Assembly: GCA_018398765.1 (NCBI GenBank) | Contig: JAHBMJ010000199.1 | Coordinates: 1-55,219 of the forward strand | Direction of reading: 5' to 3' | DNA from: Chromera velia | Taxonomy: Eukaryota | Length of the DNA stretch: 55,219 nt | Shown: piece after piece, positions 1 to 32,140 of the stretch | How positions within the stretch are numbered: position 1 is the stretch's first letter | Layout: every line of letters begins with the position of its first letter | Program-made: the position numbers and the translations under genes | The notes under the pieces: generated by a model | What the model was told of the DNA's origin: nothing | Database searches by the model: none | Seen by the model: only the letters and a program-made list of their open reading frames with translations

Positions 1-489
1 TTTGGAGCAAACTCATGAAGAAAGCAACCACAAATAGTGCGTTTTCATAAAAAAGAAAAAGAAGAAAGAATGAAACAAAAGAAAGCTTTTTTTTATTTGT
101 ATTTTTCCTCTGAGCAAGGGCAAGTAAGGATGAGTGAGGGCCTGATCTCAAGGCTCAGAGCCTAGCCCCGTCATATACCCTAGCTCTCTTCTTCACTCAC
201 CCCCTAGCTCACCCCCACACACAAAATGATAACGGAGGATAAAAAAGAAGAAGAAGAGAAAGAAGAAGAGGAGAAAGAAGAGGAGAGAGCAGGCTCCTTA
301 CAGACTTTGTCTCACTCGAAGTTTAACTTAAAAATCGACCCTGCTGCAAAGAGAAGAGGTACTCATACTCCAATGGACTTGATTCCATGCAGCGCATGCA
401 TGCGTTGTCGAACGTGCGTTCAGTGACCTCTGTATGCATGTAGCCGATTTTAAATTTTTCTCAAAAATCGGCTGATTGGATTTGTTCCG

Positions 490-562
490 TATGCGTGCAC
501 CGCGGCCCGGCAACACGCGCGTTTGGGGCCGCGGGGAGCCGCAGGGGCGGGGCAGCGGCGTG
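490..562. promoter_or_regulatory. Short GC/CpG-rich island preceded by TGCATG motifs (candidate promoter or transposon terminus)
   Basis: CGCGG/GCCGC-rich patch in AT-rich surroundings, similar in composition to the islands at 18140-18365 and 35940-36030. No associated gene was identified. Confidence 0.25.
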
Positions 563-1289
563 TTGCAAGGCCATAACGCTGACACTTTTCACCCAATTCC
601 ATTCAATCAGGTGCAAAACAGGTGCATCAGGTGCATCTGGTGCAAAACAGGTGTATCTGGTGCAACTTCTTGTTTTATACCTTTTCTGAGATGCACCTTT
701 TCCAAGCCCTAAAAATGAAATGAACTCTAGAATGAACTGCTGTTCTAGACTGTCGTTTGATTTGATTTGATTTAATTTAAGGATAGACTTAACCTCATTG
801 AAATCAAATCTGGCTGTTTGACAAGACCTGTCTAGACCCGCTTATCAAATCTTAATCAAATCTGGATCAAATCCTAGATTAAATCTCTAGCTAGATCTTT
901 AGTCGAATCGATCTGCTTTTGAACCTAGTTTTGAACTTTAAACTAGACCTTAAATCTGAGCTGGTTGGGGATTTTAGAAAGGACCAGAGAACGCTAGAGA
1001 GAACGGAACCGTCGAAACGCTATAGAACGCCACCGTGGCACGGCTTTGCATACCAGTGGTGCATACATTGTTTACTTCAGCTTGGACTTCAACAGTTATT
1101 GCTATAAAAAAAAGTTATAAGAACTCTTGATGAGCCAGTCTTGCAGCTTGCCTTTCCAGACCTAGTTCCACACCGATGATACTGCATAGAACTGCTAGGG
1201 CCGCTGGGCTCTAGAGACTAGTATCTAGGCTAGTATAGAACTATTATTTCATTAGTATAAGTGCGTATACTAGTATGTGATATTTTATT

Positions 1290-1721
1290 AATATGATGAT
1301 TGAGGATTAAATCCTAGATCCGCGATGCCACATCCCAAGCCACTAACAAGGCTTTGAGGATAACCTAAAGTACACATTCATGGGGGGAGGTGGGAAGTGG
1401 AAGAAGCTTGCATGCTAATCAAAACGATTCTACTCAATTTACCTGATTGACATAATGAACCCTTTTGAGACAGTTGGCTAGTGCTTTTGAGCCGCTTCAC
1501 GGCAGGATCGTGTACAACAGCAACACTATCTCCTTTATTTTCTTCTCATTATTTGAAGTGCCTCTCCCTGTTGCACCCGCAACGCGTTGTATGATTTTTA
1601 CTCTTATATCAATAAACGTTCTCTGCTTTACAATTTCATACAGCTCTTTCAACCTGCTCTGCTCCCTTTTGGAGTCTTTACATTCCGTCAGAATATGAAC
1701 CTCATCCTTGATCATATGCAC
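1290..1721 (-). mobile_element. 3'-terminal fragment of a LINE (C-terminal Zn-knuckle half plus 3' UTR)
   Basis: ORF 1497..1721(-) contains KDEVHILTEC, matching EDKIHVLTEC in the C-terminus of the plus-strand LINE at ~9960-9992. The left boundary is approximate. Confidence 0.5.
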
Positions 1722-3207
1722 GCGAAGGGGACAAACATTTATTACAAAGACGTTCTGGTTGAGTCCTATCTATATCTTCCCCTATGAGAGCCCTGAGAAG
1801 CGTACGAAAGCCTGCGGAGGACTGCAACAGACTCTTTGGAAGAGAGGAGGCAAGGCAGAGATTCAAAAGAATGGAAAGAATCACAAGTTAGCTGGCAGAG
1901 AAAGGAGGAGAATGGAAGCTATGGAACCAGCTGAGCAAAAAGAAAGAGGTAAGAAAGGAAGATTTGCTGACTGAAGAAGAGATAGTAAGAGGGTGGGAAA
2001 AATAGTGGAAGAAAGATGAAAACAAAGACGCAGAAGAAGAAATTATGAAAACCATCTCATGCATCTTCGAAACATTGACAGAAGCAAAAGAATGGAGGAT
2101 AGAAACAAAGAAGGTGCATGAAGGATTGAAAAAAAACGGAAACCCTAAGAAAGCGGCAGGAAAAGATGGCATGCCTCTGGGTGTGCATGGTGTAATGGCA
2201 AAGTCGGCAACAGTGGTCGAGTGTTACCATGTATTGATAAATGTATATGCTCGTTTCACATGGTGGCCATCTGGATAGAATGATCTCGTGATCTTCGTAC
2301 TTCCCAAACCAGGGAAGCCGCAGAACATTCAAAAAGGATGGAGACCAATCCACTTAGACTTAGCCGATACAAAATGGAGGGAGTTGTACGTGAAGGATGC
2401 GGTAGAGACGGAGGGAAGGCAGAAACGGAACCATATGCAGTTCGCCCACAGTAAAGGGGTAAGAACCTTGAATGCAATTTTTCTTTTGCTTCAATCGATC
2501 ACTCGTCTCAAGATTTTTTTTGTTTCTTTTATTGATTTTACAAGTGCATTTGATGAAGCATCTCATAATAGAATGCCTGAACAGTTGGGAAAGCACGGGG
2601 TATAGGAAGAGACCATTAAGTGGGTATGTGAGTCGCTGCAAAATATCAGAGCAAGGGTGAAGGGGAGTGATTTCTGGTTTTGGAAAGAAAAGGGGTCAAA
2701 GCAGGGAGGTCCGGCAGGACCTTCTCTGTTTAAAAGATATATAAATGACATGCTAGCAGACATTGGAAGGAGGGCAGGCCTTACTGGGAGGGGTCCCAAG
2801 CTCCAGAAAGGCCCCAAGGGTGCGTAAAAGAACTTGCCTGTCGGGCTTTTTGCTGACGACACGTACCTTTAATCGATAGAGACTGGAAAGGCTTCTGAAG
2901 GCCGCACTGGAGGAGTATGCGAGGCCTTTGAAGCTCTTTCTGTCAGATAAGTCAAAAATAATGAAGTTTGGACAGAAAGTGGGGGAAAAAAGAAAACGAT
3001 TCACATTGGGTGGGGCAGAGTTAGTTTAGGCAAGTAAATATCTGTACCTTAGCCTTCTTTTAACAGAAGATTGCTCCACAGATGCAATGATGAGAGAGAG
3101 AATGATTATAAGGCAGAAATACTCTTTTTTGCATTGAAAAATAAGATCAGTGCAGGAGCCTTAGGAGAGATCCCACCTGCAACTTGTTTTTAATGGTTCA
3201 GGCAGAC
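1722..3207 (+). mobile_element. Decayed non-LTR retrotransposon (LINE), RT region; left part of the element interrupted by the Gypsy insertion
   Basis: Ordered non-LTR RT motifs across stops and frameshifts: KAAGKDG, LPKPGK..GWRPIHL, FIDFTSAFD, GVKQGGPAGPSLF, LFADDT. The 5' boundary is approximate. Confidence 0.9.
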
Positions 3208-3503
3208 TGTAAACAGAATACGGGGCTTAGAACTCTCAATGCTAACGATGTGCATTCAGAGTTTATAGACTATAAGAGTTTGACCTAGAGAGGTTCGTAT
3301 ATTGTTCCTTCGATCAAGCCAGTCCAACGATCGTTAGCACTCGTTAGCTAATTCAAATGCATGCAGATCGATGTCACTTTATTCAGTCCTATGCCAGGCC
3401 ACACTTATTGAAGTCCGTGCGCGCATCGCCGCGGCGCCGCCGGCCTCGCGGCTCCGCCACTCTGCGGGCCCATCGCGTACTCGCCGCTCGTAGCCGGTCT
3501 ACA
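3208..3503 (-). repeat. 3' LTR (296 bp)
   Basis: Direct repeat of 8783-9081 with 18 substitutions and one 3-bp indel; TGT...ACA termini. Confidence 0.96.
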
Positions 3504-3518
3504 CCTGCCCGTTGCTTC
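3504..3518 (-). other. Polypurine-tract-like primer site
   Basis: GAAGCAACGGGCAGG on the minus strand directly abuts the 3' LTR. Confidence 0.7.
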
Positions 3519-3843
3519 GAAACCGACGTCCACGCTCGGTTCCAGTGCCTGCACATATCCATAACTAATCAACCTCGTGGCATTGATTGATAACATGCAC
3601 CTGCACACTTTATCGAACCATAAATGAACGAAACAAGTCGGAATACAGAGTCTGACACCCACACTGCCACCCTGCATCTATGCATGATGTAGGATAAATT
3701 TGCTTTCTTCCTCGAATTACTTACCAGGGAATTTCATCTTCCCAAAACTCGCACACATGCATTCCACTCCACAAACTTCTTAGTTCTGCCCATACTGATT
3801 TCACCTCTCTACTTCTTAATTGCCACCTACACCTGCCCGTTGC

Positions 3844-6800
3844 TTACTTCTCTTTCTCCTGCTGTCTCTTCTTTTCTTTGAAGGCATGTAATGCCTCCTT
3901 TGCATGTGTCAGGTTGACAGCAGGCTCCCATAATGCATTCTCTTTACTTTCTCCTTCTCACCACACCAGGTAGTATACCTCTTTGTCTATCTTTCTGTGG
4001 TCAAGAATCTCTTTTACTTTATACTCAATCTCTTTTGATACAGGCAACCGAAGAGCAGGCAGAGGATCATCCTTCCTTCTCTCATACTTCTTCAGGTATG
4101 ATACATTAATCACATTGTGACCCTTCATTCTTGCAGGGAATATGAGCTCATACGCGTTGCTCCCCACCTTTCTCTCTACCTTGAATGGTCCATAAAATAC
4201 AAGCTCAAGCTTCCCGCTTGGCTTCCTGCTTCCCTTAAAATATGCATTGCGTACAAGCAAAAAATCCCCTGGAGCAAATGAAACCTCTTGTCTGTGTGGA
4301 TCTACTTGTCGAGCTGCTTGTTCTCTTACTTGTTCAAGTCTCTCCTTTGCTCTCATGATTTCTGCTTCTCTGCGATCTACAAAGTCTGCTGCTGGCAGAC
4401 AGAATGACTTAAAACGTACAGAGACAGAAGGCAGGCAAATCGGGTCACGTTCGTACAGAAAACGAAAAGGAGACATACCTGTAGCTGGATGCACCGAATC
4501 ATAATACGCAAACTGACAAGAACACAACCACTTCAGCCAGTCCGTTTGATGCTCGTTCATGAAACAATGCAATATCTGTTCGATGGTCTGGTTGTCTCTC
4601 TCTGTCTGTCCATCTGACTCAGTCTGTGGGTGTCTTCTTGTGCTCATATTCAATTTTGTGCCCCACAGCCGAGCGAGTTCCTTCCAAAATGCAGAAAGAA
4701 AACGAGGATCACGGTCACTGACCACTGATTAGGGCATCCCGTGCTCGCAGACAATCCTTTCAAAGACTACCTCAGCTGTCCCTTCCACTGTAATCTCTTG
4801 TGAGACTGCAGTAAAGAAAGGAGTTTTAGAGAGGTGATCAACCACAGAGAGGATTCTATCTACCTCTTCTCCTTTAAACACCACCCTTGAGAATCCAAAT
4901 ATAAAATCAAGAGAAACCTTGGAAGAATCAGCCGCAAATGTCGAGGACCAGGCACCTCTTTCTCAAAGTTTTTGTCAGGGTCTTCAATTTGGAGCCTTGC
5001 TTCAAGCACTTCCTTCACCTCCGTCTAGAATTTCTCTTCTTCATATCCTTTCCTTATCCTTTCCAGTAATTTCTCATCTGGCTGCACTCTTGATTCCATT
5101 TGCAACAATTGACACACTTCTTTTCTTTCTTTATCTTTTTCTTCTTTCTGAGCGTTCACCCCAGGGCACCTGCTCAGCGCATCTGCCATGCGATTCCGAG
5201 CACCGGGCATGTACCTTGGGGTGATCCCGATCTCGTCGAACATGCTGATAAATCTGCGCATATGTAGAGACATTAAGGTGCGGTCAGCGGACACATTCAC
5301 ATATTTGAGAGACTCATGATCTGACTACACCTTAGTTGTGTGACTAACGTATGGTCTCCACGATTTGACCGTAAATACGCAGGAAAGAAATTCTTTATCT
5401 CTGATCGGATACTTGAGCTCTGCTTGTGTCATTCTACGTGATGTGAATGCATATGGACGGAGCCAGCCGATCTCAGGATCTTCCTGCATGAGCGCGGCAG
5501 CGAGCGTTTCTGTTGATTTGCACGCATCCATAAAAATTTCGAAGGGACGCACAAGGGCAGGAATATAGAGTTCGACAGTATTCTTCACTGCTTGTTTTAC
5601 TGCTTTAAAGCTTTCTTCCTCTTTCTTCTCCCACTCAAACGATTTGTTTCCCTTTAGCAATGCATATAAAGGGCCTGCTTTCTCACTGAATTGCAAACCC
5701 AATTTGCAAACCGCAAAAATGAAAGCACTTCATTTCGGTTCTTGGGAGTAGGCTACTTACTGACTTGGTCTGTCTTGCTCTGCTCGGGCCGCACTCCGGT
5801 CCTGGAGATCTTCAGCCCGAAAAATGTCACCTCATTCTGCATGAAATGGCATTTCAACAATTTTGCATACAATTTATTTTCACTCAACAAACGCAAAACA
5901 ATTCTGATATGTCTCTTGTGTTCTTCTCTTGTACGTAAATAAATCAGAATGTTATCCAGAAAAACTGAAACAAAACGGTCAAAACAAGAGTAAAGAGTAA
6001 ATTGAATCAACCTCATCGCTGCAGGAGGCGTGTTTGTCAACCCAAAAGAAACAACCAGCCACTCAAAAGAACTATAGCGTGTAGTAAAAGCTGTCTTTGG
6101 GATGTCTTCTTCTCTGACCCTCATTTGGTGATAATACTGCCTGAGGTCCAGTATCATGAAGAACCGGGCCCCATGCAATCGATCAATCAACTCTTGCGGG
6201 TGAGGGAGAGAATGCTTGTCTTTGATAGTGATGCGATTGAAGCTAGTATAGTCACAAAACATTCTCATTGAGCCATCTTTCTTTTGTATAAAAAGAACAG
6301 GCGCAGCATAAGGAGAAGCAGATGGTCGGATGAATCTTTGTTCAAGGCATGTATCTATCTGTCTTCTCAGCTCATCTGTCTCTCCCACTGACAGCCGATA
6401 AGGCGGACGGGCAGGAGGTGAATGACCGGGCTCAAGTTCGATTTTGAAATCCAAATGAGGTCCTCTTGATGGTGGCAGATGAGAGAGATGATCGGGAAAA
6501 AGAGACGCATGATCTGCCACAATTCCTTTCACATCTTGAGAAACATCCGCATCTGGTCGAGAGAGAAAAGCACGCACGTCCAACAAATCAGGGGCCAACC
6601 AAGCAGGATGATCAGACGGAAGAGAAGAGAGAAAGTCAGAAGAAAGAAAATCAGAACTTACATTCCCTCCATCATTCATTCTCCCCTTTCCTTTTCCCTC
6701 ACTCACTTCAGTTGTATGCACGAAGCACTCCTGTTCCCCCTCTCCTGCAGGCCAGTGTGCCGTCTCCATTCTCACGATGTGGCAGACAGTACCTTTTTGA

Positions 6801-8703
6801 ATTGCTCGTTTGGCCTACGCAGAAGAAAGGACAGGAGGGCAAGGTCGATTCTCTTCACATGCACCCCCCCAAATAATGACTTCCTGGCCGTTAAAGAAGA
6901 AACAAAGAGAACGAGACCAATGACCAAGTTCTGGTTGGTGAACGTCACTCCATTTTCTTCCTAAGATGGCATCATAGTCGTCCAGGTCAGCCAGCAATGC
7001 ACCGACTGTCTCTTGATACCCTTGAATATGAAGGGGAACATGCATCTTCACTGACTTCTCATCCTCTGGGCTCCTTCATGGCCACCCTACATCTCATCGG
7101 GGTCCCAAACCTGCGAATATGCAACTGACGCAGGTATGCAAACTTGCTATCAATGAAAATATTATCAGCTCCAATGTCATACAAAACTCTGACTGGAGCA
7201 CCCGCAACAGTACCGTGATAAACAAAACCAGTGTCAAACGAATCATCCTCATTATCCTCTTCCTTACTTAATTCTTCATCTGTTCTCTGCCTTTTATCTT
7301 CCTCAACTTCATAACGTACCGTCAGGTCGGGTTCGACCATGGTCTCGTCATTCTCGTTTCGGCCTCTGATCGTCCTCACCCCAGCTACCCGTCTTGATCC
7401 AGCCTTGCACGCTGGTTGATGTCCACTCAGCTGAGGTTGAGACGATCCACCAAAGGAGAGAGACAATGCACGTCTTCTGTCACCGGAGCCAAAGCCTCTT
7501 CCAGGTGACATGGGTGAACTTAGACTGTCACCTCTCTATCCAGACCTCCCTCTCCCCCCTGTAGGTTGAGTGACTTGATTGATGGAATATGGGAAGGGAA
7601 GGAATGGGTAAAGAGGAGGTAGCCAGGGGTACCCAGGCGTTGCCCCAAAACCCGGAACGAAAGGGGCAAGTCCTGGAGATGCCCTGGGTGGCCACGGAGA
7701 TCTGGATTGAAACGTCGTTTCAATGGTCCACATATATAGAGGAAGTTGAGGTCCATTCCTATACGCAGCCATCATGTGGGTGTTCTTCCCACTGTGTTAC
7801 ATAAAAGACACCGATTCAGTCTCCCCCTGCTCTCCCACACCGTCTGTGGAATCAATGGGTATCGGGGTGGAAGTCTTCTCAAAGGTCGCACCCCAACGCC
7901 ACACAATTCCATGGGAGCCGGTCCTGTGGGATTAATCACCGGACTCGGATCAAATGGGGGTCCTCACGACCAACGGCTTCAAGAGCGCGAACTGGCCTGC
8001 TTAAGCCAGATTTCACTGTCCAACGCCTTCTCCATTGCTTTGTCTAATGTTGCCGGCTCCATTCTGTCAGTCTCATACATATTAATCCTGGGCGGCAAAC
8101 CCTCAATATAATTCTCTATGAGATCCTCCTCACTCGCATTTGTGATCTTCACCGCGAGAAGGGAGAATTGCTTGTTGTAGTCGTTGACCGTTCCTGTGCA
8201 CCTGAGGGACAACACCTGCTTTCTCGCCTTCCTCCTCTCATGTTTCTCTTTATACCTGCATCGTAGCACCTCACGCAATGCAGGCCAGTCTGCAAACCCC
8301 ATGCCTCTCTTCATACGTAAGTCGAACCAGTCCCTCAGCTCCTTGCACAGGAAGGACTTTGCGAGGCCAAGCTGACGATGAGGAGCAACATTCGCATTGG
8401 TAAAGTAGTCCGACTTGTTAGTATCCATGATAAACCTCTCCACAGTGTCGCGGCGTCCATGCAGTGAACTCGTCCGGCTGCTTCAGTGCAATCTAGGGAA
8501 GCTGCTCTCGCAGATCAGGGCCCTGAGAGGGCATGACAAGCTGCTGTGTACCCTCCTCACTCATTGGCAGCACCTGAGGAGGCAACTGTGGGGGTGGAGC
8601 TGCAACCCTCGCCACCAGCCCCTCCATGGTCTGCCGCATCATCTCTTGGGTCTGCTGCAGGCTGTTCGTTTGTCAAAGGAGCCAAGACTGGAGGTGGTTC
8701 CAT
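3844..8703 (-). pseudogene. gag-pol of the chromovirus, disrupted by stops, frameshifts and an apparent deletion
   Basis: Gag-like ORF 7979-8443; protease VLYDIGA (degenerate D-S/T-G); RT motifs SPYAAPVLF, KTAFTT, FGLTNTP, FLDNIL (degenerate YxDD); RNase H motifs DAC..L..ALMQ, YPIRDKE, ADALSR; integrase motifs SDRDPRF, HPQT..DGQTER, GPFKV; chromodomain YKVKEILDHR..YYLVW*EG..ENALWEPAVNL; terminal TAA at 3844-3846. No HHCC zinc finger is visible between RNase H and the integrase core (~4925-5020). Confidence 0.93.
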
Positions 8704-8761
8704 GACAACAACAGAATTCAGACTGAATACAAACGAATCAAAAAGCCTGTTCGAAACAGTT

Positions 8762-8779
8762 ACCTGGCTCTGGTAACCA
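8762..8779 (-). other. Primer-binding site resembling the tRNA-iMet type
   Basis: TGGTTACCAGAGCCAGGT lies 3 nt inside the 5' LTR and is close to the classical iMet PBS TGGTATCAGAGCCA (one extra T, one substitution). Confidence 0.75.
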
Positions 8780-8782
8780 GAT

Positions 8783-9081
8783 TGTAAGCAGAATACGGGG
8801 CTTAGAACTCTCAATGCTAACGATGTACATTTAAAGTTCATAGACTAATATAAGAGTTTGACCTAGAGAGGTTTGTACATTGTTCCTTCGATCAAGCCAG
8901 TCCAACGATCGTTAGCGATCGTTAGCTAATTCAAATGTATGCAGATCGATGTCACTTTATTCAGTCCTGTGCCAGGCCACACTTATTGAAGTCCGCGTGT
9001 GCATCGCCGCGGCGCCGCCGGCCTCGCGGCTCCGCCACTCCGCAGGCCCGTCGCGTACTCGCCGCTCGTAGCCGGCCTACA
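8783..9081 (-). repeat. 5' LTR (299 bp)
   Basis: Direct repeat of 3208-3503; adjacent to the PBS. Confidence 0.96.
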
Positions 9082-10676
9082 CAGATAGTGTGTGCAGTTT
9101 GGTCATACGGCTATGAAGTACATTCACACTCGCAGGATTCAAAGCGTTTGCAGAGTCTGACAGACTGCAAAGAAGATTTATTCGATGGATGCTGCAATTG
9201 AGAGAGAAAGAAAGCATACTCACTACTTTCCTTGAGGCAGGCCTTCTTCCTATCGATCTAGTAGTTGTACAGAGAACCCTGACATGGACAAAGAAGGTAA
9301 TCCAAAAAGGAAGAAACACACCGATAGGCCATGCACTCATTCAATCATTACAAAAAGGAGTCGATTCAGAACTGAGAAGAAAAAAGCTTCACCCCTTTCA
9401 TTTTTTTCCCCACTTAAAGAAATGTGTTGAAATACTTTTTACAAAGATAAGAAGCCATCCCTTCTAGATAGGAAGAGAACCAAAAGCTGCAGGCAGACAA
9501 CCTTCCTTTAAGAGAAGAGACAGAATAGTAAGGTGGATATTAGAAGCGCTGAAAAAGGAAGAAATTACAAAAAGGAAAAAGGAAGCATTTGCAGAGAGAG
9601 TTGAGAGGTCAGTACAGAAAAGAGGAAAGGCTGAAAGGGAAGAGCTGAGAGAAGATGTCATGCATCCTATCCATGCGTCTCTATCCAACGGAAATTGCCT
9701 AAATCTGTGGCTTCACAACAGCAAAAATAGAGAAGATACAGACAGAAGCATTTCATTAGATAGAGATAAGATAAGGAGAACTCCCATCTGCTATACAAAG
9801 ATAGCTCCCTGGCCTATCCACAGAAGAAGGGCTGTATTTCGGGTGGGAAAGAGAAACTTGAAGGTAAACAGGGGGAAGTTCTCAATAAAAGGAGACAGAG
9901 GGACCCCATTGACAGAAAGGAAATGTATGGTTTACTCTGACTTGCTTGACATTCAAGCAGTCGAAGATAAAATTCATGTGCTGACTGAATGCCCTCTGCA
10001 TGATGGAGAGAGGGCAGATTGCTTACAAGCTTTGATGACATATTGGAGTTCGGTGAAAGGGAGAGAGGAGAGAGCTACAAATAGCAACAGATGGAAAGTG
10101 GGTAGTGAAGGGAAGGTAGACAAGATCGCTCTATTCTCTTTTCTTTTAAATGAGGCCGACAAGAATGTCGATACCTTTTTGAAAGACGTCATGATCAAAA
10201 GACAGGTAGTGAGAGAATAGAAAAGAAAAAAGGGAGACAATTTGAGTCAAACTTTAGGAAGAGAGTTCGATAGGCTGCATCATGAGACTTGGAAAAGTGA
10301 AAAAGAAAGAGAGGAAAGAATTAAAGAGTATAAAAGGGTGTGGAGTAATATAAAGGAAGCAAAAAAGGAGGGAAAAAGAAGGAGGATGGGATGTTGGGAG
10401 GTTTTGGAACTTGCTTTGAGCCGTTTATCTACAATTCTGGGATCGTTCCCTTGCAAACCCTACTTTGGAATGGAGTGAGCCCTCTCGCATACACACGCAG
10501 GTGATTGACTGTTCAATATGATCTGTTCGCGGCACAGGCTAGAGTTGCTAGACCTATGCGGGCTGGCTAAGGAGGTCTGATGCGTCTAGGCGCTTTCCCT
10601 AAAAGCCGTACGTCGGACATTCGGCATTGGGGCAGGAGGCCAATCCTCCGGACATTAATCCTAATCCTAAATCCTA
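9082..10676 (+). mobile_element. Right part of the interrupted LINE: post-RT region, C-terminal Zn knuckle, 3' UTR and (AATCCT)-like tail
   Basis: Purine-rich coding-like sequence resumes directly after the TSD; RKCMVY...EDKIHVLTEC is a degenerate CCHC motif; ends in TAATCCTAATCCTAAATCCT. Confidence 0.82.
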
Positions 10677-10864
10677 AAATAATTAACGCACTGGGTTACG
10701 CTGGGTATGGAGTAAGACAATGGTCTTAAAAAAAGCAAAGATGGATGATTGTGTGCCAAATGAACCGTGTTTTTACAAAAATTATAAGTTGAAGTCCTCG
10801 GACCAGGACCGTTGATTACTAGGTTAATCAAGAGATTAAAGGTAGTCAGGCTTAATCAAAGATA

Positions 10865-10919
10865 AACATGATATGGACTGCTAGGAGCTCGGCTCCAACG
10901 GCTTAGTCATTCATTCATT
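10865..10919 (+). mobile_element. Retroposon 3' tail, GGAGC-NNN-GCTCC hairpin plus (TTCA)n family, divergent copy
   Basis: ATGGACTGCTAGGAGCTCGGCTCC...TCATTCATTCATT resembles 39316-39401 and the reverse complement of 32238-32330. Confidence 0.55.
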
Positions 10920-10927
10920 TGCCGTAT

Positions 10928-11144
10928 ATCTATGGGTCGGCGACTATTGCAATAGTTAGAATAGTGAACCATTTTAACTATTTTCTGATAGTCGCTTCAT
11001 TTTTAACTATAAAATAGTAAGAATAGTAACTATTTCAACTATTTTTTCTAGTTCAAGTTATAGTTTACTATTTTGACTATAAAATATAAAGGTATAGCTA
11101 TAGTTGCTATAGTCAACTATTTGTTGACGAACCGACTCATAGAT
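10928..11144. mobile_element. MITE-like element (~217 bp)
   Basis: 13-bp terminal inverted repeat ATCTATGGGTCGG / CCGACTCATAGAT (1 mismatch); AT-rich interior with many ACTAT(T)/(A)ATAGT motifs. Confidence 0.65.
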
Positions 11145-12020: not shown

Positions 12021-17872
<5,852 letters not shown>

Positions 17873-21700: not shown

Positions 21701-24700
21701 TGAAGGTCAGTCAGGGGGGGGGTCTGCCTGTGGATTTCAGGTTAGTGCTTTTTGTCTGTCGGTCCCTTGGCTGACTTCTTCTTCTTCTTCCCATGATTCC
21801 TCCCTCCCCTACCCCAAAATTTGTTCATGTGGATGCTGAGAGTAGTGAGTGAAACGGCTGTGAAAGCACATCGTGCAAGGGTTTGGAGAAGCGAACAAAA
21901 CAAAGAAACAGAAAGGGAAGGACAAAAACAGAGAGAGAAGGAGACGGAGTGAGTCAACATTTCCATCTGGTTTCCCGATACCCTTTTTGGAGGGGATTCT
22001 GTCGAAGATTTGAAAGAGGGAGGCTTTCTGAATTGATTTTTCCGGCCTTCCTTGTATGGTTTGCTCCGCTTGTTCAGTTTTCTCTGTCCCCCCCGACCCC
22101 CGACCCCCCCCCCCCCCACACACACATACATAACCGAGGCATGTACATAGCCCCAGCTTGCCTGCTTCGCTTCCCTTCCCTTCCCCTCATGCAGGTCTGA
22201 CGAGCGGCTCCCGGGTCTTCGAGGAGGCCACAAGGAAGCAGTGCCTTGTACAGCAGCAGCAAGGTCTGTCTGTCTGTATGTATGTATGTGATTTCTGCGT
22301 TTCTTCTTTTTTCCTTCGCTCACCGTTGCGTGATTCTGCCTTCAGATGATTTCGTTTATCTTGCAGTCCTTCAGAATACTTCTGATAGGGGTGGATTTAT
22401 CTTCCTCTGCGGCTGCCTGCACGGGACCCATATGACGGGCCCTGATAGGGGTGGATTTATCTTCCTCTGCGGCTGCCTGCACGGGACCCATATGACGGGC
22501 CCTGATAGGGGTGGATTTATCTTCCTCTGCGGCTGCCTGCACGGGACCCATATGACGGGCCCTGATAGGGGTGGATTTATCTTCCTCTGCGGCTGCCTGC
22601 ACGGGACCCATATGACGGGCCCTGAAGAGAACAGAGATGACTTCGTTTCTCTCATTCACCCCAAATGACTTTCTTCAGCTTTCTCATTCTCTTTTCCGGG
22701 GTGCATTCAGCCTCGTCTACTCTCTTTCCTTTCTTTTCCTTTCCTTTCCTTTCCTTTCCACCTTACACCATTTGCCTCTCCACCCTTGCAGGGGCCGAAG
22801 CCGCCTTGGGTGCTTACTCAGATGCTCTTTCGTTACTTTCAGCCAGCCGAGGAGGCGGCGGGGTGGGGGGGGCATCGGATCCCCTGCATGGGGTGTGCGG
22901 GGGGGCGTCGACGAAGCTGGAGGCCCTCCCTGAAGGCAGCGACGAGGACGGGTGCAGGTCCTCCCGGATGGAGCGGAACTCCGCGGGGGGGGAGGCAGAG
23001 AGGTCTCCTGGTTTGATTTCCAATTCCGTCAATTCCATCTGCCTGAGCAACAGCAGGAGGCAGCAGCATGGGAGTTTCCCTTCGATTTCTCACCCTGGAG
23101 ATGGAGACGGAGACGTGGAGGAGGAGTCTTGCTACAAACCCCCTCCTGATGGTGCCGCTTCGTCGTCTTCGTGTAGGATAAAGGGTGCATGGGAAGAAGA
23201 CGGGAAGATTGGAAAGTGTGCAGCGGAAGGGGGTGGACAGAGGGGAGAAGACAAAATGGATACATTAGTCGAAAGTGGGACTGACGATGGGGGGGCTCTG
23301 CTGAGTCACCCTGTGTCAGCAAAGGGCGAGAGGGACAAAGACAAAGAGCGGACACCTTCTGTTCATGGAATGTGGCTCCAGTGAGTTGTGTTGCTGCTTT
23401 TTTCTATTGATTCTATTTTCTTGTTTTCCTTCAGTCTTTGCTCATGGCAGTGAGGGCAGGCAGGCAGGAATGTTTTCCTCTCTCTCTCTCTCTCTCTCTC
23501 TCGCTTGTTTCATCAGCGTCGCGACAGACGACACATGGGATGACGCGGTTTCCTCCTTCGGTACCCTTTTTTTTTTTTCGGCTGATTGATTGTTTTGAAA
23601 CCACTCAACCAAATTTGCTTTTTCGGTTTGTGAGAAGAAACATGGTACGGTCGCCGCGTTGTGCCCGGTGGCATGAATGGTCTTTGTTTTTTGCCGTTGT
23701 TTCTTTTTTTCTGTGTACACATGTATGTGTGCGTGCAGAAGAGAGACTCGCAAGGCTGCAGAGCGTCTGAACGGGCTGACGGACGTCTCGAAGAAAAGCC
23801 TAAGAGAGAGAGAGAGAGAAAGAGAAAGAGAGAGAAATTCAAGAGGAGGGGGAGGAACGGCGGGGGGCACAGGAGCGGCAGTCACTCAAGAAGGGGGGGG
23901 AGGGGGAGGGTCATCTACAGGTATGAGGTCAAAGACGGCGGGTGGGGTGGGTAAGAGGGCAAGTGCGTCCCAAGACAAGGAGACAACGCCAGGGGTGTCA
24001 CGAAAGTCGTCAGGGGCGATAGTCCACCGTCGTACCTCCAGGCCCGCCCCGCCGCCCCTCAAAGACCCAAAAGAAAGAGGATCCTCTGAGCCTTCCCAAG
24101 CTCCAGAAGAAACAAACGAAGGTGGGCCGCTGGAAAATCTTTCCAACAGCTTTTATTCCATACACTTTGTGCTTTTGGAAAGTTCTTGTCTTCAAATAGC
24201 ATTGATTGATTGTCATCTTCTCACCCGTCTCATCTTCTTTCAGTCAATCATCCGTCTTTCTCTTTCTGTCTCCTCTTTGACTTTTCGCGTGTCGGTAGGT
24301 TTTTGTCTCTTGGACTCATTCATCAGCTGCTTTCCGCATCTCCTTTTTTTTGACCTCCGCCTTTCATGTCTCTTTCCCCTTGTTTCGACCAACCAACCCC
24401 TCTGATATCACGTTGTGAACCTCCACACTGCGCGCTCTCTCCCTGTGCAGCTTCGCAGACAGCACACCGAGTGCAGGGCGACGACGAGAGGAGGCAGCTC
24501 CGATCCTCGTCACACGGGGGAGAGGGAGGAGAAGCTGAATCCCCCGAGCCTTCTCCTCCTGGACGAAGATCAAGAGACGCTGCTGTCACACTACACAGAT
24601 CAACGGCGCGCTCCCAGAACGGAAGCGCGAACGAGAACGACCGGAGGACGCGCTCTCGATCCCGGTCCTGTTCCAGAGGCTGTGGTGGAGACAAAACGAC

Positions 24701-27700
24701 GCCAGAGAGAGAAAATCAGAATCGAAATGTCCGCACTGGGGCAGCAGCACGAGGTGGATCATTCGCACCAAAAGTAAAACCCAAACTGAAACCTCAGGTC
24801 TCTGCCCCCACCCCGTCACCCTCGCAGTATCTTCGCAAGAAGAAGTCAGCCTCCGCTTCCATCGGGGGGCCAAGCGATGAGAGTGCCGGGACTGGGACTG
24901 GGCCCCAGCCGGTATCCCCTCCCAGGCTCTCCGCTTCCCGGGGGCAGTCCGGGCCCTCTACAAAGGCCTCCCGGGGGCATGCCGGGGTCCACGTGGATTC
25001 TGAGGAGAAATCTGAACCAACACAGACCCCCTCAAGGTCCCCCCACCCCTTCCTTCGCCGAAAATCCCCTCCCCCTTTTCTTGCAAATGCCCCCGGATGC
25101 CGCAAGCGTCCGAATTCCTCAAGTCCCCCTCCCTTCCGTGACGCTTCTCGAAACCTGAAAGATGAGGAAGAAAACAGGAAAGCAGGAGAGGATGTGGTAG
25201 AACCTTCCGGAGAGAAGGAGATGGAGAGGAAAGCTGAGAATGTTCCAGCCCCTTCCCAAAAGAGAGAAACTGACCCTACCCCCCGCCCCACTGCATCATT
25301 CGAACCTCCCCTAACAGATCTGCAGCACTCGCAGACGACGACCCACATGATGCACAAGGTCACAAGGACAAGAGCGGGCGCCCCGGTCTCTGGAGGAACC
25401 CATTCTCTCTCCCGCTGTCTCTCCAGAGAAAAAAAGGCAGCCCGCTCGGCAGAACTGCCTGACTCATCTCTACCCCCAGACGCCCCTGTGGCACCCTTAT
25501 CTGGGGGGGACCGTGTGCAATCACACAGAGAGAAAGAAAAGAAAAAGGAAAAGGACGGAGGGGCAGTCAAACCACGGTCCCTCATGTCGCTGCACGAGAA
25601 GAAGAGAAGCCCCCGAAAGTCGGTACCCCCCGTCGGTTCCTGGACCAACAACTCGGGTCTCAGTCAAAGCCAAAAAGCCCAGCAGCAGCAGCAGCAGTCG
25701 CACCTGCTCTCCTCCACCTGTGCCCCTTCCTCTGTTGCACACTCTCAATTGCACCAACAAAAAAACCTGACTGCCTCGACAAACGAGGTGATCCGAGAAA
25801 GCAATCCTGAGGGGGCGGGGCAGACTACGGCCCCAGAGCATCCCCTCGCTCCATCGCCTGAATGGGAAGATGGTACACCCGGTGGGGGGGATCTGCATCA
25901 TCATGTCGAGGAAGGGAGAGAGGACGTCCCTGACGGGGCCGTTGAGCAGAAGCCAACAGCAGAAGCAGCGGGTGTTCGCGAAGAGCTGTGCGTTCATATT
26001 CTCACGGACAGTGGGAATGGTGGCAAATCGATGTCCCCCCTTCTGTCGCACAGTGCTCTCAAATCATTCCAAGAGAAGGCGGCAGTGGCATTGGATGCGT
26101 CTGGAGCTGCTGCATTCACCCTTGGCCTTCCCGGCCCCCCCTCAGCAGACGAATTGAAGGAAGGGGCGAAAGCGCGAAAAGAAAAGCAGCAAGAGGCACC
26201 AGTGCGTGTAAAGGCCTCTAGAGGCCGAAGCACCACGTCGTCTGGTCTCTCTACAAAACCCGTTGGTAAGGGATCCAGCAAGGGTACGAGCACAGCAGCA
26301 GCAGCAGCATTTGTTGGCCCTCCGCGGGTGGCTGGTCTTTCCATTGCCGCCCTTTCAAACTCTCGGGAGGAAGCTCTCACAGGGCCACCATCGATTGCCA
26401 AGTCGGCCACCCGTGTCACGCGCACGCACCATGCAGGAGGGCCATCCCGCGTGACGCGCACCCTTACTGGCCCCCCGCGCACCCATTTGAAGTCCGCAGA
26501 GAGGGAGAGAAGTCGAGTGAAGAACACGACAGGAGGAGAGAAAGAGGAAGGTAAAGAAGGGGAAGAGAAGAACGTCAAACAAGACGTGACGGCACCCATT
26601 CGACAAGTAAAAACTCTCGTTGCCCCGTCAAGCGCCCATGCGGAGGAACACCCTCCACCTCCCGCGACCCAAGGAGACGGCAGTAAGCAGTCCGGCAAAG
26701 GGACGATGGGGGGAAGGGGTTTGTCTTCCGCTTTGCGACGGTCCCGTGACGATTATTCCCGTCCGTGGCGGGCTGCAAATGGAACGTCGCGGTCCGCTGG
26801 GGGGACTTCTGTAGGTGGTGCAGGTGGTGCGAGTGGTCCCGGAAATCGAAATTCCGCCCGGCCGAAGTCCGTTGATCGCCTGCCATCAGTAGCAGCGCGG
26901 AGACGTTTGTCCCGTGCGCGTCGCATGGCGGAGACGCTGGCCCCCGTCGGTCTCGGGAGAGGGGACAGCGACGCAGACCCCAATGAAGTCCCATCTCCTC
27001 CTTCCATGCAGTCTCCAAAGTATTCGCAGGAGCAGGGGGCAAAGTCCAAAGCGCCAGCAGCAAGTGATCAAAAGAGTCCAGCAGTCATGATCGCTGCAGG
27101 CCAAGGACCCATGCAGGCCCCGGCAAACGCGCACCCCTCTTTTGGAGTCACGTTCCCCTTTGTGCCCCCCCCACCGCATACCCAGGCATCACCCCCGTCT
27201 CAAGCCTTCGTTCCGCATCTCCATGCTGTCACTTCGCCTGTGGGGCCCATGGGGGGACTGCATGGGGGGATGCAACAGCAGCAGGCGTACACAGACCCCA
27301 CGGGGGGCGCTGCACACGCTTTCTCGGCATACCGCGCTCCCCCCTCGCACGAGCGTGTGCAGTCGAACGCACCTTCTGCCTACCGTCACGTCGATGCTCC
27401 GACTGCAACTGCCCCCCCACCCCCTCCCTCTGCTGGGGTCAATCCTTTGCTCCCCAACGTCCTTCCGTACATCCACGCATCGGGACTGCACCCCCACACA
27501 GTGTCTACTGCCGGGGCCCCTGGGCCTCTGCGAACGAATTTCAGTCCCCCCCCAAAAGGCCTGTCTTCAGCCTCGCCATCCGGGGTGATACCGTCAATGT
27601 CGTCACCCCTGAAGCCCACCCCAGCAGCAGCCCAGTCAGCTGTGCTGGTTCGCCCCCCCTTTGCAGTCGTCCGGCCAAGTGGCCAGGCGGCTGCTGCCAT

Positions 27701-29328
27701 TCCGCTCGTGCCTGCCCCTGTGCACGGGGACACCCTCCCGTCCTCCTCCCACAGTCACACAGCGCACTCACACTCACACCCGAACGCCTCCGTCGCCGTC
27801 CCCCTTTTGCGTCCCTCTCGGCCCCCCTCCGCCTCAGCAGCCCAGGCCTGCGATGAAGCTGCAAAGGCACCCCCCCAGGCGGAGGTGTCCAACGTTGATT
27901 CGATTTCAGCGAAGAAAATGGGGGTTGAGGTCAAAGAAGAAGCATCACAGGAGAAGGAGAAGGGGCCTCACAGAGGGGCCTCCCAGGTCTCGCCCTCGGC
28001 TCATCTGCCCCCCGACTCCTCTCTAGGGCGAGGGGGGGAGGGAAGCAAGCAGAACCCGACAAACAAAACTGAGACAGCCTCTGTTCAGAGGGCAGCCTTG
28101 CAAGGCCAAAGGGAAGTCGCGGTCGAGGGAATGCAGCCAAAGAGCGGGACGATCCTCCGACAGGTGCCAATGCACGCCCAGACCCAGCATCAAGCAGTCC
28201 GTCACGTCATTACAACAGGGGCGATATCTCAAGGCGCAACCGTTCAGCAGGGTTCAGGGGGGCATTGGGGGAAAGAGGGAATACAGAACAGGCCCAAAAG
28301 CGGCACCCGTCTCGGCCCGGCACTGCAGTCTCACCACCAAACTGGCGCTTTCACGCACTACCCCGTCCCCTATTCTGTCTACCCCCAGGCAGCCACATAC
28401 ACACACGCGCAGCAGCCCTCGGGCTCCAACCTCCAGTCTCCACATGCGAACGCCCACCGCCTTGCCTCCGTCCCATCCCGCCTGTCCATGCCAGCGCGCT
28501 TCGCAAGCACCCGATACTACAACGCAAATGCGGTTGCTGTTCAGCAGCAGCAGCGCAGCCAGCACCGCCATGCTGCGATGCCGTTTGCGCCAGCGGTGCG
28601 ACAGGGGGCGGCTGGGCCCGGGGCCGTGGGTGAGTACGCAGCCCAACAGCTTCCGACTGCGCCTGAAGAGAAGGAGGACCTGTCTTTGGAAGCTCCCAAA
28701 AGAAACAGAAGTGCTCCAGCCGCAGCTGCACTGATGATGCCCCCCCACCGTGCAGCGCCAGCCGCAGCTGCACCGCTTACACACCCGCAGCATCACGCGG
28801 GACTGGTACATTTGTGGGGGGGAGTTTCCGGAGGGACGTCAACAAGCCCGTATGCCTTCGGGATGGGGGGAGTCCGCGTCCCGGGTGGGGACGGGGGCGC
28901 TTTTCCCTCCCCGAATCGCCACGCGGGGGGGTTTGTGACGACGTACGGAAATCCGGTGTCGCCCGCCTCCTCGGCGTCTCACTCGTACTCTCACTCTCAC
29001 TCTCCTGTGTATCTTCTCAGGGCAGCAGCAGCAGCAGCACATCCTCACCCTCAGTCTGCAATGGGTGCAACGGCACACATGCCGATGAAAAGGGTTGCCG
29101 GTTCTCTCTTCTTTGGAAGCAGACAACGTCCGGCTCCGACTGGAGCTGCAGCGTCTATGGCTGAAGGTGTGCACCCATACAGCGGGGGGCAGGTTGAGGG
29201 GGCGAGGGTAATGGCATCGTCTTCATCTGGAGGGCGGTTGGGGGCGCGATTGGTAGAGGCTGAGGGGGAGGGCAGAAAGTTTGGGGCCCTCGTTCAGTGG
29301 GCGGCTGGACGGGAGAGCCGGACGGGGT

Positions 29329-29330
<2 letters not shown>
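18782..29330 (+). CDS. Large hypothetical protein (~2260 aa) with FAM194/ERICH6-like N-terminal region and long low-complexity C-terminus; exons 18782-18942, 19443-19512, 20207-20314, 20644-20958, 21498-21705, 22195-22263, 22792-23380, 23739-24121, 24451-29330
   Basis: GT-AG junctions are phase-consistent and the exons sum to 6783 nt; the terminal exon is a 4.9-kb open frame. The family call rests only on recalled motif resemblance (IRYPSGVIAV; GTGALFDGEGREVDRW; VQLSSFLAFRL..FFCF..INFG) and is less certain than the gene model. Confidence 0.75.
22382..22625. repeat. Perfect 60-bp tandem repeat (4 copies) inside an intron
   Basis: Unit CTGATAGGGGTGGATTTATCTTCCTCTGCGGCTGCCTGCACGGGACCCATATGACGGGCC repeats identically on consecutive 60-nt lines. 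Confidence 0.97.
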
Positions 29331-29365
<35 letters not shown>

Positions 29366-31271
29366 ATAGGCAGAAGGTCTCTGTTCGTTGGTTGCGAAAG
29401 AGGCAGAAGAAGGAAGAGAGAAAAAGGAGGGAGGAAATGAAGTGTTTCTTTCTGTCCTTTTTTTTGCCCGCCCTTTCTTTTTTGGTTTGTTTCTCTTCGT
29501 CTGTCTGTGCATGAATTCGTCTCGTTCCCTTTCTGTCTGTGTGTGTTTGCGCCTAGCTTCTCTGTCCGCCTCCTCATCTGCATCCATCCATCCATCTGGC
29601 GGAGAAAAATCGAGGAAAGGAAGGACGATGGCTGTGCTGCTGAGCGAGGCGACCGGTCACCTTCTTCTTCTTCTCTTTTCTTCTGTTCGCTTCTCTTTCT
29701 TGGTCGTTCTTTCTGGAAGGAGGTGGGGAGATCATTCGAGTCTGTGAGGACGTTTAGACGTCCGTGTTGTGTAATGTCTGTCTGTCTGTCTGTCTCAGAA
29801 TTCCTGTCTCTGTGCGTCCGATAGACAAACGGAGGGCAAAAAAAAAAGGAAGGAAAGGGACATGATCCTGCGAATGGAGAGAGAAGGGAAGCAAGAGAGA
29901 GAGACAGAGAGGTCCTCAGCAGCTGTCTCGTTGTGCTTGGTCTCATGTGACAGCGATAGCCGCAGGGACGGCGACAGGAGTCGGGCGAGAGTTGTTTGTT
30001 GCCTGCCTTTTTGGTTCCTTCCTTCCTTCTTTGTCTCTGGCTGGGATTACTCCCTCCCTCCCTCCGTCTGTTTCTTTCATGCATCCTCTTTTGCTCTGGT
30101 CCGTTTGTCGAGGGAAAGACGGAGGGGGGGGAGCGTGGTTGATGGCACACACACTCCCTGCATGGTTGGTCGGTCGGCAGCTCTCTCCTTCATCTTATTC
30201 ACGCTTTCCTCCTGCCTCCTCCATTCATCTGTCTGTGCTGTTTGTCTTCCCTCCTTGTTTTGTATATTCTCGTTGGATTGACTGATGGATCGAAGCGAAG
30301 AAGAGAAGAGAAGCGCTTGTCGACAGAATCCATTCATTCAAGGCTTTCATTTTTGCGTGCATGCTTGTTTTGTTTTGTTGTGTGTTGTGGCGTCGTGTTC
30401 TTTCCATGCATTCTTGTATGCCCAACCAAGAGAGAGCCAAGACAGCCTTGCTGTCAATAGGAGGGAGGGACAGGTGGGGCTGGGACGAGTCCGTGCAGAG
30501 TGGGTGGGTGCACGTGTATCCTTCCTTGCTCTTGTTCAGCAACTGCATGGATGCATGAAATCAATCAAGTGTTTAATTGTCTGCATGCATGTAGGTTGCA
30601 TGGTTGGACTAGTAAAAGCTGCGTCCCTTCCTTCCTCTCTCTCTCTCTCTCTCTAGCTCTTTCTTCCGTCTCGTGTCTTCCTCCTTTCCTTCCTTTTTCG
30701 TTTGTTGTAGCCCCTCTTTGATTCATTCATTCTTTCGTTTCTTCATTCCTGTCGTCCGCGAAGAAAGGGGGGAGGGAACAAAGTGGATGGAAAGAATCCG
30801 ACTGACTGAAGGAGAGGAAAAGGAAAGTTTGGGATTCTCCCCCCCCTTTCATCTCCGCTCCTTGTCGAAATCACTCGCCCCTCTTCGCTTTCTTTCCGTC
30901 CATCCACTGGCAGTCCCTCTCTTGCCCCGTTTTTCCTACAAATCGTCACTCATCTCGTTGCTCTTCATTCCATCGATGAGTCTTACAGAGTACCCCCCCA
31001 TGCTAGCCGCACGCTCCCTGGACTCACGTGAGATGCGCGAGATGGAAGAAAACGAAGAAGAAAAAGGAAGGAAAGATGGAATCACTCACGCCGCCCCGGT
31101 CTAGCGGTGTGAAGGATTGTGTTGCATGCGTTGCGAGGAAGCTGCGCATCCATTGGGTGAACTGAACAGAGGTGGCATTCGCGTCTTTCTTTGTCCTTAT
31201 TGCTCACTGTTTGCGTGAAATGGATGGACGGGCATCCCTTTTTTTCTTTCTCTCCTCGCTTTCTGTCATGC

Positions 31272-31310
<39 letters not shown>

Positions 31311-32140
31311 TCCCTTATTCTCCATTTCTGTGCAACTTCATGTACTCGTTCTTGACCATCTTCGCCGGGTAATTGACCATTGTATTTGCTTAATTGATCT
31401 GTTGCCTTTTCTCTTTTGCTCCTGCCGTGTACCATTACATGCATAGGTGCGTAAATAAGTTTGTGGTTGCATGCGTGGTACATACAGGACGAAAGGGACG
31501 GACGAAAAGAATTCATTCAAAGTGTGTGTCTCATTCTTTGCACTCGGCAAGCGGTGGAGCGCCCCCCCGCTCTGTTTGTGGAACGACCGAACCGAACAAG
31601 ACGGCACCTGGGCAGGCTGGGCTGGGGTCGGGGGGAGGGTGGGGGCTGTATCATTCTTCCATTTGAGTCTTCAGGAATGCAGGGAGGGAGGAAGGAGAAC
31701 AAAGGTAAAGGTCGGTTTCCTTCCCTCCAGAAGCTGAATTCGTGGGTGCGTTTGCATAGATTGATCAGAGACGGCTTCATGCTGATTCAAATCCGCGGAA
31801 ATCTGGTGATCGTTGTAGAGAGCTACAGGTAGAGAGAATACAGGGTGCGAGAAAAAGAATTCAAAGAAAGCTTAAAACATGTTGAACGTGCGTATGAAAA
31901 TGCTTTCAAAAAGATCTCTGAACGGCTAGGTTAAACATTGATATAGAATTCATCTCATTAATTCAAATTAATGCTAGTGCGCGTCAAATAGCCCAACTAG
32001 GCAAGGATTCTACATATAAATATATATATTATATTTCGATTAATATATATATATATATATATAAACTAGCATGGGTAGTATTATAGTAAAATGAGACACT
32101 AGATGAGACACAGAGACAATATGTTTTTCAATATATTTTT

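What the first reader, a model, noticed from the sequence alone, without database searches (positions are those of the whole stretch)
3203..9086. RIP-like C>T hypermutation recorded in the LTR pair: 17 of 18 substitutions are transitions, mostly at CpG and CpA
Seen: hand alignment of the two LTRs, which were identical at insertion, gives 18 substitutions and one indel. 17 are C/T or G/A. Taking C/G as ancestral, 8 fall in CpG, 6 in CpA/TpG, 2 in CpT and 1 in CpC, and both LTRs carry derived alleles. The TSD mismatch (CAGAC vs CAGAT followed by A) and the chromodomain stop (TGG>TGA) fit the same pattern. Established: fungal RIP produces repeat-targeted C>T, classically at CpA, while ordinary 5mC deamination gives mainly CpG>TpG. 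Inference: this apparently non-fungal, chromerid-like genome may have a repeat-targeted cytosine methylation or mutation defence acting beyond CpG. I do not know of such a system described in this lineage, but I cannot search the literature.
Basis: partly seen in the sequence, partly recalled or inferred. Interest (0 to 1): 0.9.

Follow-up and report, generated by a model that had tools for sequence, protein, structure and literature searches.

The report
Chromera transposons decay by C-to-T mutation
In the alga Chromera velia, a free-living relative of malaria parasites, retrotransposon copies have gained several times more C-to-T changes than a nearby single-copy gene, mostly at CpG and CpA, which likely reflects repeat-directed cytosine methylation rather than fungal-style repeat-induced point mutation (RIP).

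Summary
The counts are exact: the LTRs (3208-3503, 8783-9081) differ by 18 substitutions, 17 of them transitions (CpG 8, CpA 6, CpT 2, CpC 1). The host is Chromera velia. Alone, the context skew is not significant (p=0.18). Larger samples support a repeat-enriched C-to-T excess. A single-copy control, compared between strains, gives 27 transitions to 22 transversions (p=0.003 against the LTR pair). In 15 other copies of the family, private changes are 47 C>T, 7 T>C and 13 transversions, on both strands. Two further LTR families agree. Over 94 pooled events, CpG and CpA mutate 2.7 and 2.3 times faster than CpT/CpC. It is not RIP as defined: RIP indices fail, decay is about 3% per LTR, and copies show no bursts. 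The most likely cause is steady deamination of 5mC in silenced repeats; neither 5mC nor the enzyme could be tested, and the control is one transcribed region. My searches found no description for chromerids. The scan earlier noted similar LTR patterns in a fungus and a reversed one in diatom-like genomes, none in Chromera.

The parts
3203..3207 (.). left target-site duplication, CAGAC (likely the ancestral form)
   Evidence: empty-site joint 3207>9087
3208..3503 (-). left LTR (3' LTR of the minus-strand element), 296 bp, CpG o/e 1.35; carries 9 of the 17 derived transitions
3504..3517 (-). purine-rich tract next to the 3' LTR (inferred PPT)
   Evidence: sequence
3958..4728 (-). integrase C-terminal part with Tf2-type SH3 domain, ending in a TGG>TGA stop (3958-3960) inside a chromodomain-like motif (motif name recalled, not a Pfam hit)
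5325..5729 (-). RNase H fragment
   Evidence: PF17919 and PF17917
5753..6814 (-). reverse transcriptase fragment
   Evidence: PF00078
7056..8663 (-). gag and protease-side region, broken by stops and frameshifts; template for the comparison with 15 other copies
   Evidence: PF03732 on 7979-8482
8783..9081 (-). right LTR (5' LTR), 299 bp; carries 8 of the 17 derived transitions
9082..9086 (.). right target-site duplication, CAGAT (CpA>TpA, likely derived)
1700..3202 (+). host repeat, left part: decayed LINE-like ORF into which the LTR element inserted (boundary approximate; class from recalled motifs)
   Evidence: translation; multi-contig empty site
9087..10400 (+). host repeat, right part: continuation of the LINE-like ORF (boundary approximate; no Pfam hit for 9468-10220)
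22800..31900 (+). single-copy transcribed region used as control; not part of the element
   Evidence: X2 shows no listed difference at depth about 25; X6 differs at 49 places

Best explanation
Retrotransposon copies in Chromera velia gain C-to-T changes on both strands several times faster than a nearby single-copy gene, most often at CpG and CpA, likely because silenced copies carry 5-methylcytosine that deaminates steadily to thymine. Shown: the excess, its direction (C>T, not T>C), its two-strand symmetry, its context order (CpG >= CpA > CpT ~ CpC), that it acts after insertion (LTR pair, TSD, unselected codon changes) and that it is even across copies. Inferred: that 5mC is present, that it follows silencing of repeats, and that the writer is a non-canonical DNMT. 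The best candidate is a diatom-type DNMT4-like enzyme such as the one reported in the sister chromerid Vitrella; one of the four Chromera proteins tabulated as DNMT2 is a second candidate.
For: LTR pair 17:1 against single-copy 27:22, p=0.003. The same run, X6, gives 352:56 on the element and 27:22 on the control, p=1e-6. Of the 40 of 797 difference rows shown, 32 are window-derived C>T, 4 are T>C and 4 are transversions. The C>T rows in ORFs are 16 non-synonymous to 8 synonymous, as expected without selection (32% synonymous expected). In 15 other copies, private missense changes are 47 C>T, 7 T>C and 13 transversions: 15.4, 2.7 and 0.92 per 1000 opportunities, with 25 coding-strand C and 22 G. 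C>T per transversion opportunity is 16.6 (9.3-32) against at most 4.3 in the control, a fold of at least 3.9 (1.7-9.1). T>C per transversion opportunity (2.9) is close to the control's overall 2.45. Two other families, classed by amino-acid pair, give 22:1:7 and 22:7:4. Pooled 94 events: observed/expected CpG 1.65, CpA 1.40, CpT 0.66, CpC 0.57, p=0.0003, with no 5' preference and no CHG excess. Precedents: all-context 5mC on repeats in Naegleria (PMC12344493, section read); Vitrella CEM15752 groups with diatom DNMT4 (PMC10538959).
Against: No 5mC data and no enzyme were seen. One survey lists Chromera with 0 DNMT1/3/4/5/6/DIM2 and 4 DNMT2 (PMC12344493 Supplementary Table 1). That table also shows all zeros for Phaeodactylum and Vitrella, which other papers report to have DNMTs, so its zeros are weak. 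The control is one transcribed 8-kb region, mostly exon, with 49 unpolarised differences to one other strain. CpG is also raised there (7 observed against 4.3 expected of 21), so only the overall excess and CpA separate repeats from genes, and the CpA contrast is borderline (3 of 21, p=0.053). The LTRs remain CpG-rich (o/e 1.35) and CpA is not depleted in the element. The protein-level data come from predicted gene models, which favour copies with few stops, and are polarised by majority.
Confidence: 0.5

Rival explanations
1. Regional, methylation-free effect: ordinary deamination of unmethylated cytosine is poorly repaired in silent or untranscribed DNA, while transcription-coupled repair, GC-biased gene conversion or selection keep genes free of it. 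Repeats would be hit because of where they lie, not because they are marked.
For: The only control is transcribed. Repeat-rich parts of the window have lower GC and higher TpA than gene-rich parts. One survey finds no canonical DNMT in Chromera. All four contexts are affected. CpG elevation without methylation is known in yeasts (recalled, no call).
Against: The contrast holds when only C<>G and A<>T transversions, which gene conversion does not bias, are the baseline (352:28 against 27:11, p=0.0002). It also holds at non-synonymous sites alone (54:13 against 9:8, p=0.03) and is not seen at fourfold sites of the control (5:6). The 8 shown rows downstream of the long exon give 3 transitions to 5 transversions. 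A CpA preference over CpT/CpC suggests an enzyme (inference).
Confidence: 0.28
2. A weak RIP-like system: a DNMT4/RID-type enzyme detects duplicated DNA and converts C to T directly, in rare rounds tied to the sexual cycle.
For: Repeat-enriched, post-insertion, two-strand C>T with a CpA excess. A DNMT4-classified protein is reported in Vitrella.
Against: RIP indices fail: element interior product 0.55, substrate 1.45, composite -0.90 against >1.15, <=0.75, >0 (PMC7882544, passages). No overdispersion over 15 copies (p=0.73), and C>T scales with transversions between the older window copy and the others (p=0.43). Each LTR carries both C>T and G>A (5+4 and 5+3). The TSD base outside the LTR also changed, though it lies in another repeat. 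The link of the Vitrella/diatom clade to fungal RID held in only one of two trees.
Confidence: 0.12
3. Replication artefact of the element: reverse-transcriptase errors or a cytidine deaminase acting on cDNA, plus selection in active lineages, make copies differ by transitions.
For: Differences between copies include changes from unsampled active lineages; 21 changes shared by two or more copies were all C>T.
Against: The LTR pair and TSD are identical at insertion (established) and show the strongest bias. Both strands are hit equally (25:22; 19:13, p=0.38), with no TpC or CpC preference. Window-private changes are unselected and include stops.
Confidence: 0.05
4. Chance plus the genome's ordinary transition bias.
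For: The context skew of the 17 LTR changes alone is not significant (p=0.18).
Against: The control has ts/tv 1.2, and the independent samples agree (small window repeats 11:2, p=0.06).
Confidence: 0.05

Closest known systems
Deamination-driven decay of methylated transposons (plants, fungi, diatoms; all-context repeat 5mC in Naegleria gruberi, PMC12344493)
   Same: Steady two-strand C>T excess in transposon copies, highest at CpG, reaching non-CG contexts.
   Different: CpA is nearly as mutable as CpG and CHG is not favoured. No 5mC or canonical DNMT is reported for Chromera in what I could read.
Repeat-induced point mutation (RIP) of Pezizomycotina, RID/DNMT4-dependent (PMC7882544 passages; PMC2621366 search listing only)
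   Same: C:G>T:A changes enriched in repeats, with a CpA component, that create stop codons.
   Different: Indices fail, intensity is low (about 3% per LTR), there are no bursts, and CpG is at least as mutable as CpA. A homology trigger and premeiotic timing are untested.
RIP-like TpCpG hypermutation of Pucciniomycotina (PMC3318451, passages)
   Same: Inferred from alignments of transposon copies; CpG-containing target.
   Different: No 5' base preference here (p=0.82), and CpA is also raised.
Diatom-type DNMT4, with Vitrella brassicaformis CEM15752 (PMC9998398, PMC10538959)
   Same: A candidate writer in the sister chromerid; function stated as unknown in diatoms.
   Different: No Chromera orthologue was shown; one survey confines DNMT4/RID to fungi.
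Ty3/Gypsy LTR retrotransposons with a chromodomain-type integrase tail
   Same: TG...CA LTRs, 5-bp TSD, gag-RT-RNase H-integrase order.
   Different: Nothing unusual in the plan; this copy is dead, and family contigs from RNA-like runs look spliced.

Membership tests
Fungal RIP | C:G>T:A excess in repeats over single-copy DNA | tested here: met
   17:1 and 352:56 against 27:22; one control region only
Fungal RIP | [quoted passage not shown] | tested here: not met
   interior 0.55/1.45/-0.90; left LTR 1.00/1.06/-0.06; right LTR 1.11/0.97/+0.13; LINE flanks about 0.7/1.5
Fungal RIP | CpA as the dominant target | tested here: not met
   CpG 1.65, CpA 1.40, CpT 0.66, CpC 0.57 observed/expected over 94 events
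Fungal RIP | dense, episodic mutation that differs sharply between copies (feature recalled) | tested here: not met
   chi2 10.4, 14 df, p=0.73 over 15 copies; gene models may under-sample heavily hit copies
Fungal RIP | triggered by homology whatever the sequence (young host duplicates are hit) | tested here: inconclusive
   no young Chromera host paralogue found for the one family tried
Fungal RIP | RID/DNMT4 enzyme and premeiotic timing | not testable with these tools
   no genome held; the papers conflict
Methylation-driven transposon decay | directional two-strand C>T excess after insertion, CpG highest | tested here: met
Methylation-driven transposon decay | 5mC present on the repeats | not testable with these tools
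   only assembled contigs were available
Methylation-driven transposon decay | a DNA cytosine methyltransferase in the proteome | not testable with these tools
   one table: 0 canonical, 4 DNMT2, with false zeros for other species
cDNA-editing cytidine deaminase (APOBEC type) | one-strand bias and a 5' base preference (feature recalled) | tested here: not met
   25 C: 22 G on the coding strand; 5' base p=0.82
Ty3/Gypsy LTR retrotransposon | LTRs, TSD, gag-RT-RNase H-integrase order | tested here: met

The most novel reading that the evidence does not exclude
Chromerids, the closest free-living relatives of apicomplexans, run a repeat-directed cytosine modification system written by a DNMT4/RID-like enzyme with CpG plus CpA specificity, and it mutates transposons to death. 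This would be functional evidence for a RID-type genome defence outside fungi.
Probability: 0.22. Interest if true: 0.85.

Novelty: new variant of a known kind. Interest (0 to 1): 0.5.

Why it matters
Chromera holds about 30 Mb of transposons against 1.5 Mb in Vitrella (PMC4501334, passages), and how it restrains them is not described in what I could find. Whether apicomplexans methylate DNA is disputed (PMC10164579, abstract). A mutational footprint of repeat-directed cytosine modification in their free-living relative gives a direct, cheap test (EM-seq or nanopore on a cultured strain). It also gives a substrate prediction (CpG >= CpA > CpT ~ CpC) for the diatom/Vitrella DNMT4 clade, whose function is stated to be unknown. 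If no 5mC is found, a 4- to 8-fold repeat-enriched C>T process without methylation would itself need explaining.

Tried and rejected
No whole genome is held, so genome-wide LTR pairs and a methyltransferase search could not be run. The RT homologue search returned only 40-54% relatives. The metagenome scan with gag gave 7 loci with short weak matches and no family copy. A host multigene control failed: the ORF at 36185-37633 has one named Chromera paralogue at 46% among the 10 of 22 hits looked up. Runs X4 and X5 did not cover the control. No RNA holder was listed on record; X3 and X6 are RNA by guess only. The 894-bp perfect duplicate around the N at 44198 was not used as evidence, being a likely assembly artefact. 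Reverse polarity (T>C as the main process) was rejected by family majority. CHG-type and TpCpG-type targeting were rejected. Literature: searches naming Chromera with methylation terms gave 4, 0, 0, 1 and 2 papers, none on Chromera DNA methylation by title or abstract start. None of the 20 listed of 113 mentions Chromera. RIP-outside-fungi searches listed fungal papers only (20 of 138; 2). Vitrella + DNMT4 gave one work. PMC5890265 and bioRxiv 2024.10.28.620566 do not mention Chromera in the main text. Only 12 of 23 supplementary files of PMC9998398 were searched, with no hit; the other 11 may bear on the enzyme question. Subscription papers are outside the library.
Full report
Observation. 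The element is a minus-strand Ty3/Gypsy retrotransposon (gag, RT, RNase H and Tf2-type SH3 hits), bounded by LTRs at 3208-3503 and 8783-9081 and by the TSD pair CAGAC/CAGAT. The LTRs differ by 18 substitutions and one 3-nt indel; 17 are transitions, with contexts CpG 8, CpA 6, CpT 2, CpC 1. Normalised to available cytosines (54, 33, 38, 29 per LTR), the skew of these 17 is not significant (p=0.18; CpA among non-CG p=0.04).

Host. A 90-aa GARS exon at 16350-16619 is 100% identical to a Chromera velia CCMP2878 protein, with Vitrella at 61%. The element sits in a decayed LINE-like ORF (translation; class from recalled motifs). Contigs join its two flanks without the element, with more summed depth for the CAGAC form.

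Direction and timing. Contigs of four runs were laid on 3100-9200. Places by kind give 532 transitions to 91 transversions in X1 and 536 to 89 in X2. The tool showed 40 of 797 rows, the best supported, where the window differs from most other copies. Of these, 32 are window T/A against family C/G, 4 are the reverse and 4 are transversions. The 24 C>T rows in ORFs are 16 non-synonymous and 8 synonymous, matching the 32% synonymous expected without selection. They are therefore changes in a dead copy, not lineage evolution. The RNA-like runs X3 and X6 are richer in C/G than the window (104 against 43 and 220 against 132 places).

Other copies. The gag search and cluster listing gave 18 predicted Chromera proteins from 15 loci of this family. 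They were placed on window codons by tblastn, keeping segments of at least 70% identity and 25 residues, and well-aligned sites. In columns with three or more copies, private single-step changes were 47 C>T, 7 T>C and 13 transversions. Set aside were 3 multi-step, 9 ambiguous and 21 shared changes (the shared all C>T). Rates per 1000 opportunities are 15.4, 2.7 and 0.92; by context CpG 31, CpA 23, CpT 10, CpC 9 (p=0.002; p=0.056 with five or more copies); 25 coding-strand C and 22 G. The window's own 37 private sites are 28 C>T, 2 ambiguous stops, 2 T>C and 5 transversions. Counts are evenly spread over copies (p=0.73). Two other LTR families, classed by amino-acid pair only, give C>T:T>C:transversion of 22:1:7 and 22:7:4, with 11 and 12 ambiguous or multi-step changes set aside.

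Control. On 22800-31900, run X2 shows no listed difference at depth about 25, so the region is single-copy and X2 matches the assembly there. X6 differs at 49 places over about 8 kb: 27 transitions and 22 transversions. In the 30 shown rows within the long exon, fourfold sites give 5:6 and non-synonymous sites 9:8. The LTR pair (p=0.003), the 40 rows (p=0.0004) and X6 on the element (p=1e-6) all differ from it. Even if every control transition were C>T, the repeat excess is 3.9-fold (1.7-9.1); it is about 8-fold if half were. T>C is not raised. Limits: one region, transcribed, one strain pair, unpolarised; 40 of 49 rows seen.

Context. Pooling 17 LTR, 30 internal and 47 other-copy events gives observed/expected CpG 1.65, CpA 1.40, CpT 0.66, CpC 0.57 (p=0.0003). 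CpA makes 32 of 65 non-CG events (p=0.0009). There is no 5' preference and CHG is not raised. The control's 21 shown transitions (CpG 7, CpA 3, CpT 2, CpC 9) fit this model poorly (p=0.013), but the CpA contrast alone is borderline (p=0.053) and CpG is raised there too.

Not RIP as defined. Product, substrate and composite indices are 0.55, 1.45 and -0.90 inside the element. Neither LTR meets the product or substrate cut-off (thresholds from PMC7882544). Divergence is about 3% per LTR, both strands are hit in each LTR, and there are no bursts. Repeat-rich parts of the window are lower in GC and higher in TpA than gene-rich parts, which fits long-term C>T loss but also native transposon composition.

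Mechanism. The simplest account is steady deamination of 5mC on silenced repeats, with CpG and CpA the main methylated contexts (inferred, 0.5). The main rival is poor repair of ordinary cytosine deamination in silent DNA (0.28), which a transcribed control cannot exclude. A weak RID-type system (0.12), RT or cDNA editing (0.05) and chance (0.05) follow. The enzyme is open. One table gives Chromera no canonical DNMT and four DNMT2 (PMC12344493), but it also zeroes Phaeodactylum, which has DNMT3/5/6 (PMC9998398). Another paper places Vitrella CEM15752 with diatom DNMT4, a clade that splits from canonical DNMT4 in one of its two trees (PMC10538959); Chromera does not appear in its text or searched supplements.

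Papers seen. PMC12344493: passages, section 7, and part 2 of 2 of the supplementary table. PMC10538959: passages, section 17, supplement hits. PMC9998398: passages, 12 of 23 supplements searched. PMC4501334, PMC7882544, PMC12543289, PMC3318451: passages. PMC10164579: abstract and outline. PMC5890265 and bioRxiv 2024.10.28.620566: term searches without a Chromera hit. The literature searches are listed under Tried and rejected; none showed this pattern described for chromerids.

Verdict. It is best filed as a mild, repeat-enriched C>T process with CpG plus CpA preference in a lineage where I found none described, not as RIP. Interest 0.5; 0.85 if a DNMT4-like writer is shown.

Noticed in passing
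window 4806-5214, 5249-5764, 5835-6706, 6815-7055, 7111-7319 (minus strand): Contigs of the RNA-like runs X3 and X6 skip parts of the element; all five skipped parts checked start with GT on the minus strand and three end in AG as cut. Family transcripts look spliced in ways that remove RT or RNase H sequence. RNA status is a guess.
   Followed up: partly
window 3827-3845: A second copy of the 19 bases that span the LTR end and the purine tract (3499-3517) lies about 330 bp inside the element.
   Followed up: no
window 8756-8782: The region next to the 5' LTR contains a short inverted repeat where the primer-binding site is expected; self-priming is a possibility, untested.
   Followed up: no
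gag region 7056-8663, other copies: T>C changes at TpA are 3 of 238 opportunities against 4 of 2381 elsewhere (p=0.02, uncorrected, n=3); mis-polarisation or a weak reverse process.
   Followed up: partly
window 3208-3503 and 8783-9081: The LTRs are CpG-rich (o/e 1.35) in a window at 0.72.
   Followed up: no
window 32246-32330 / 39316-39400 and 32141-32207 / 32646-32712: An 85-bp inverted pair and a 67-bp direct pair in AT-rich DNA; together 11 transitions and 2 transversions, and in the inverted pair all four transitions have C/G in the same copy.
   Followed up: partly
window 43304-45092: An 894-bp perfect tandem duplicate around a single N at 44198, likely an assembly artefact.
   Followed up: no
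window 1-12000, 32000-35000, 38000-42000, 45000-55000 against 16000-31000: Repeat-rich parts have lower GC and higher TpA o/e (mostly 0.5-1.2) than the gene-rich part (mostly 0.2-0.5).
   Followed up: partly
window 16350-16619: GARS exon; the matching Chromera protein is 446 aa with GARS domains only, while the Vitrella hit is a 1720-aa fusion.
   Followed up: no
window 35154-35798 (minus): ORF that resembles the C-terminal endonuclease part of a non-LTR retrotransposon by recalled motifs; no Pfam hit.
   Followed up: no
window 36185-37633: Unnamed protein with scattered relatives at 28-46% identity, some from other protists, no Pfam hit, and a 51-bp triple repeat.
   Followed up: partly
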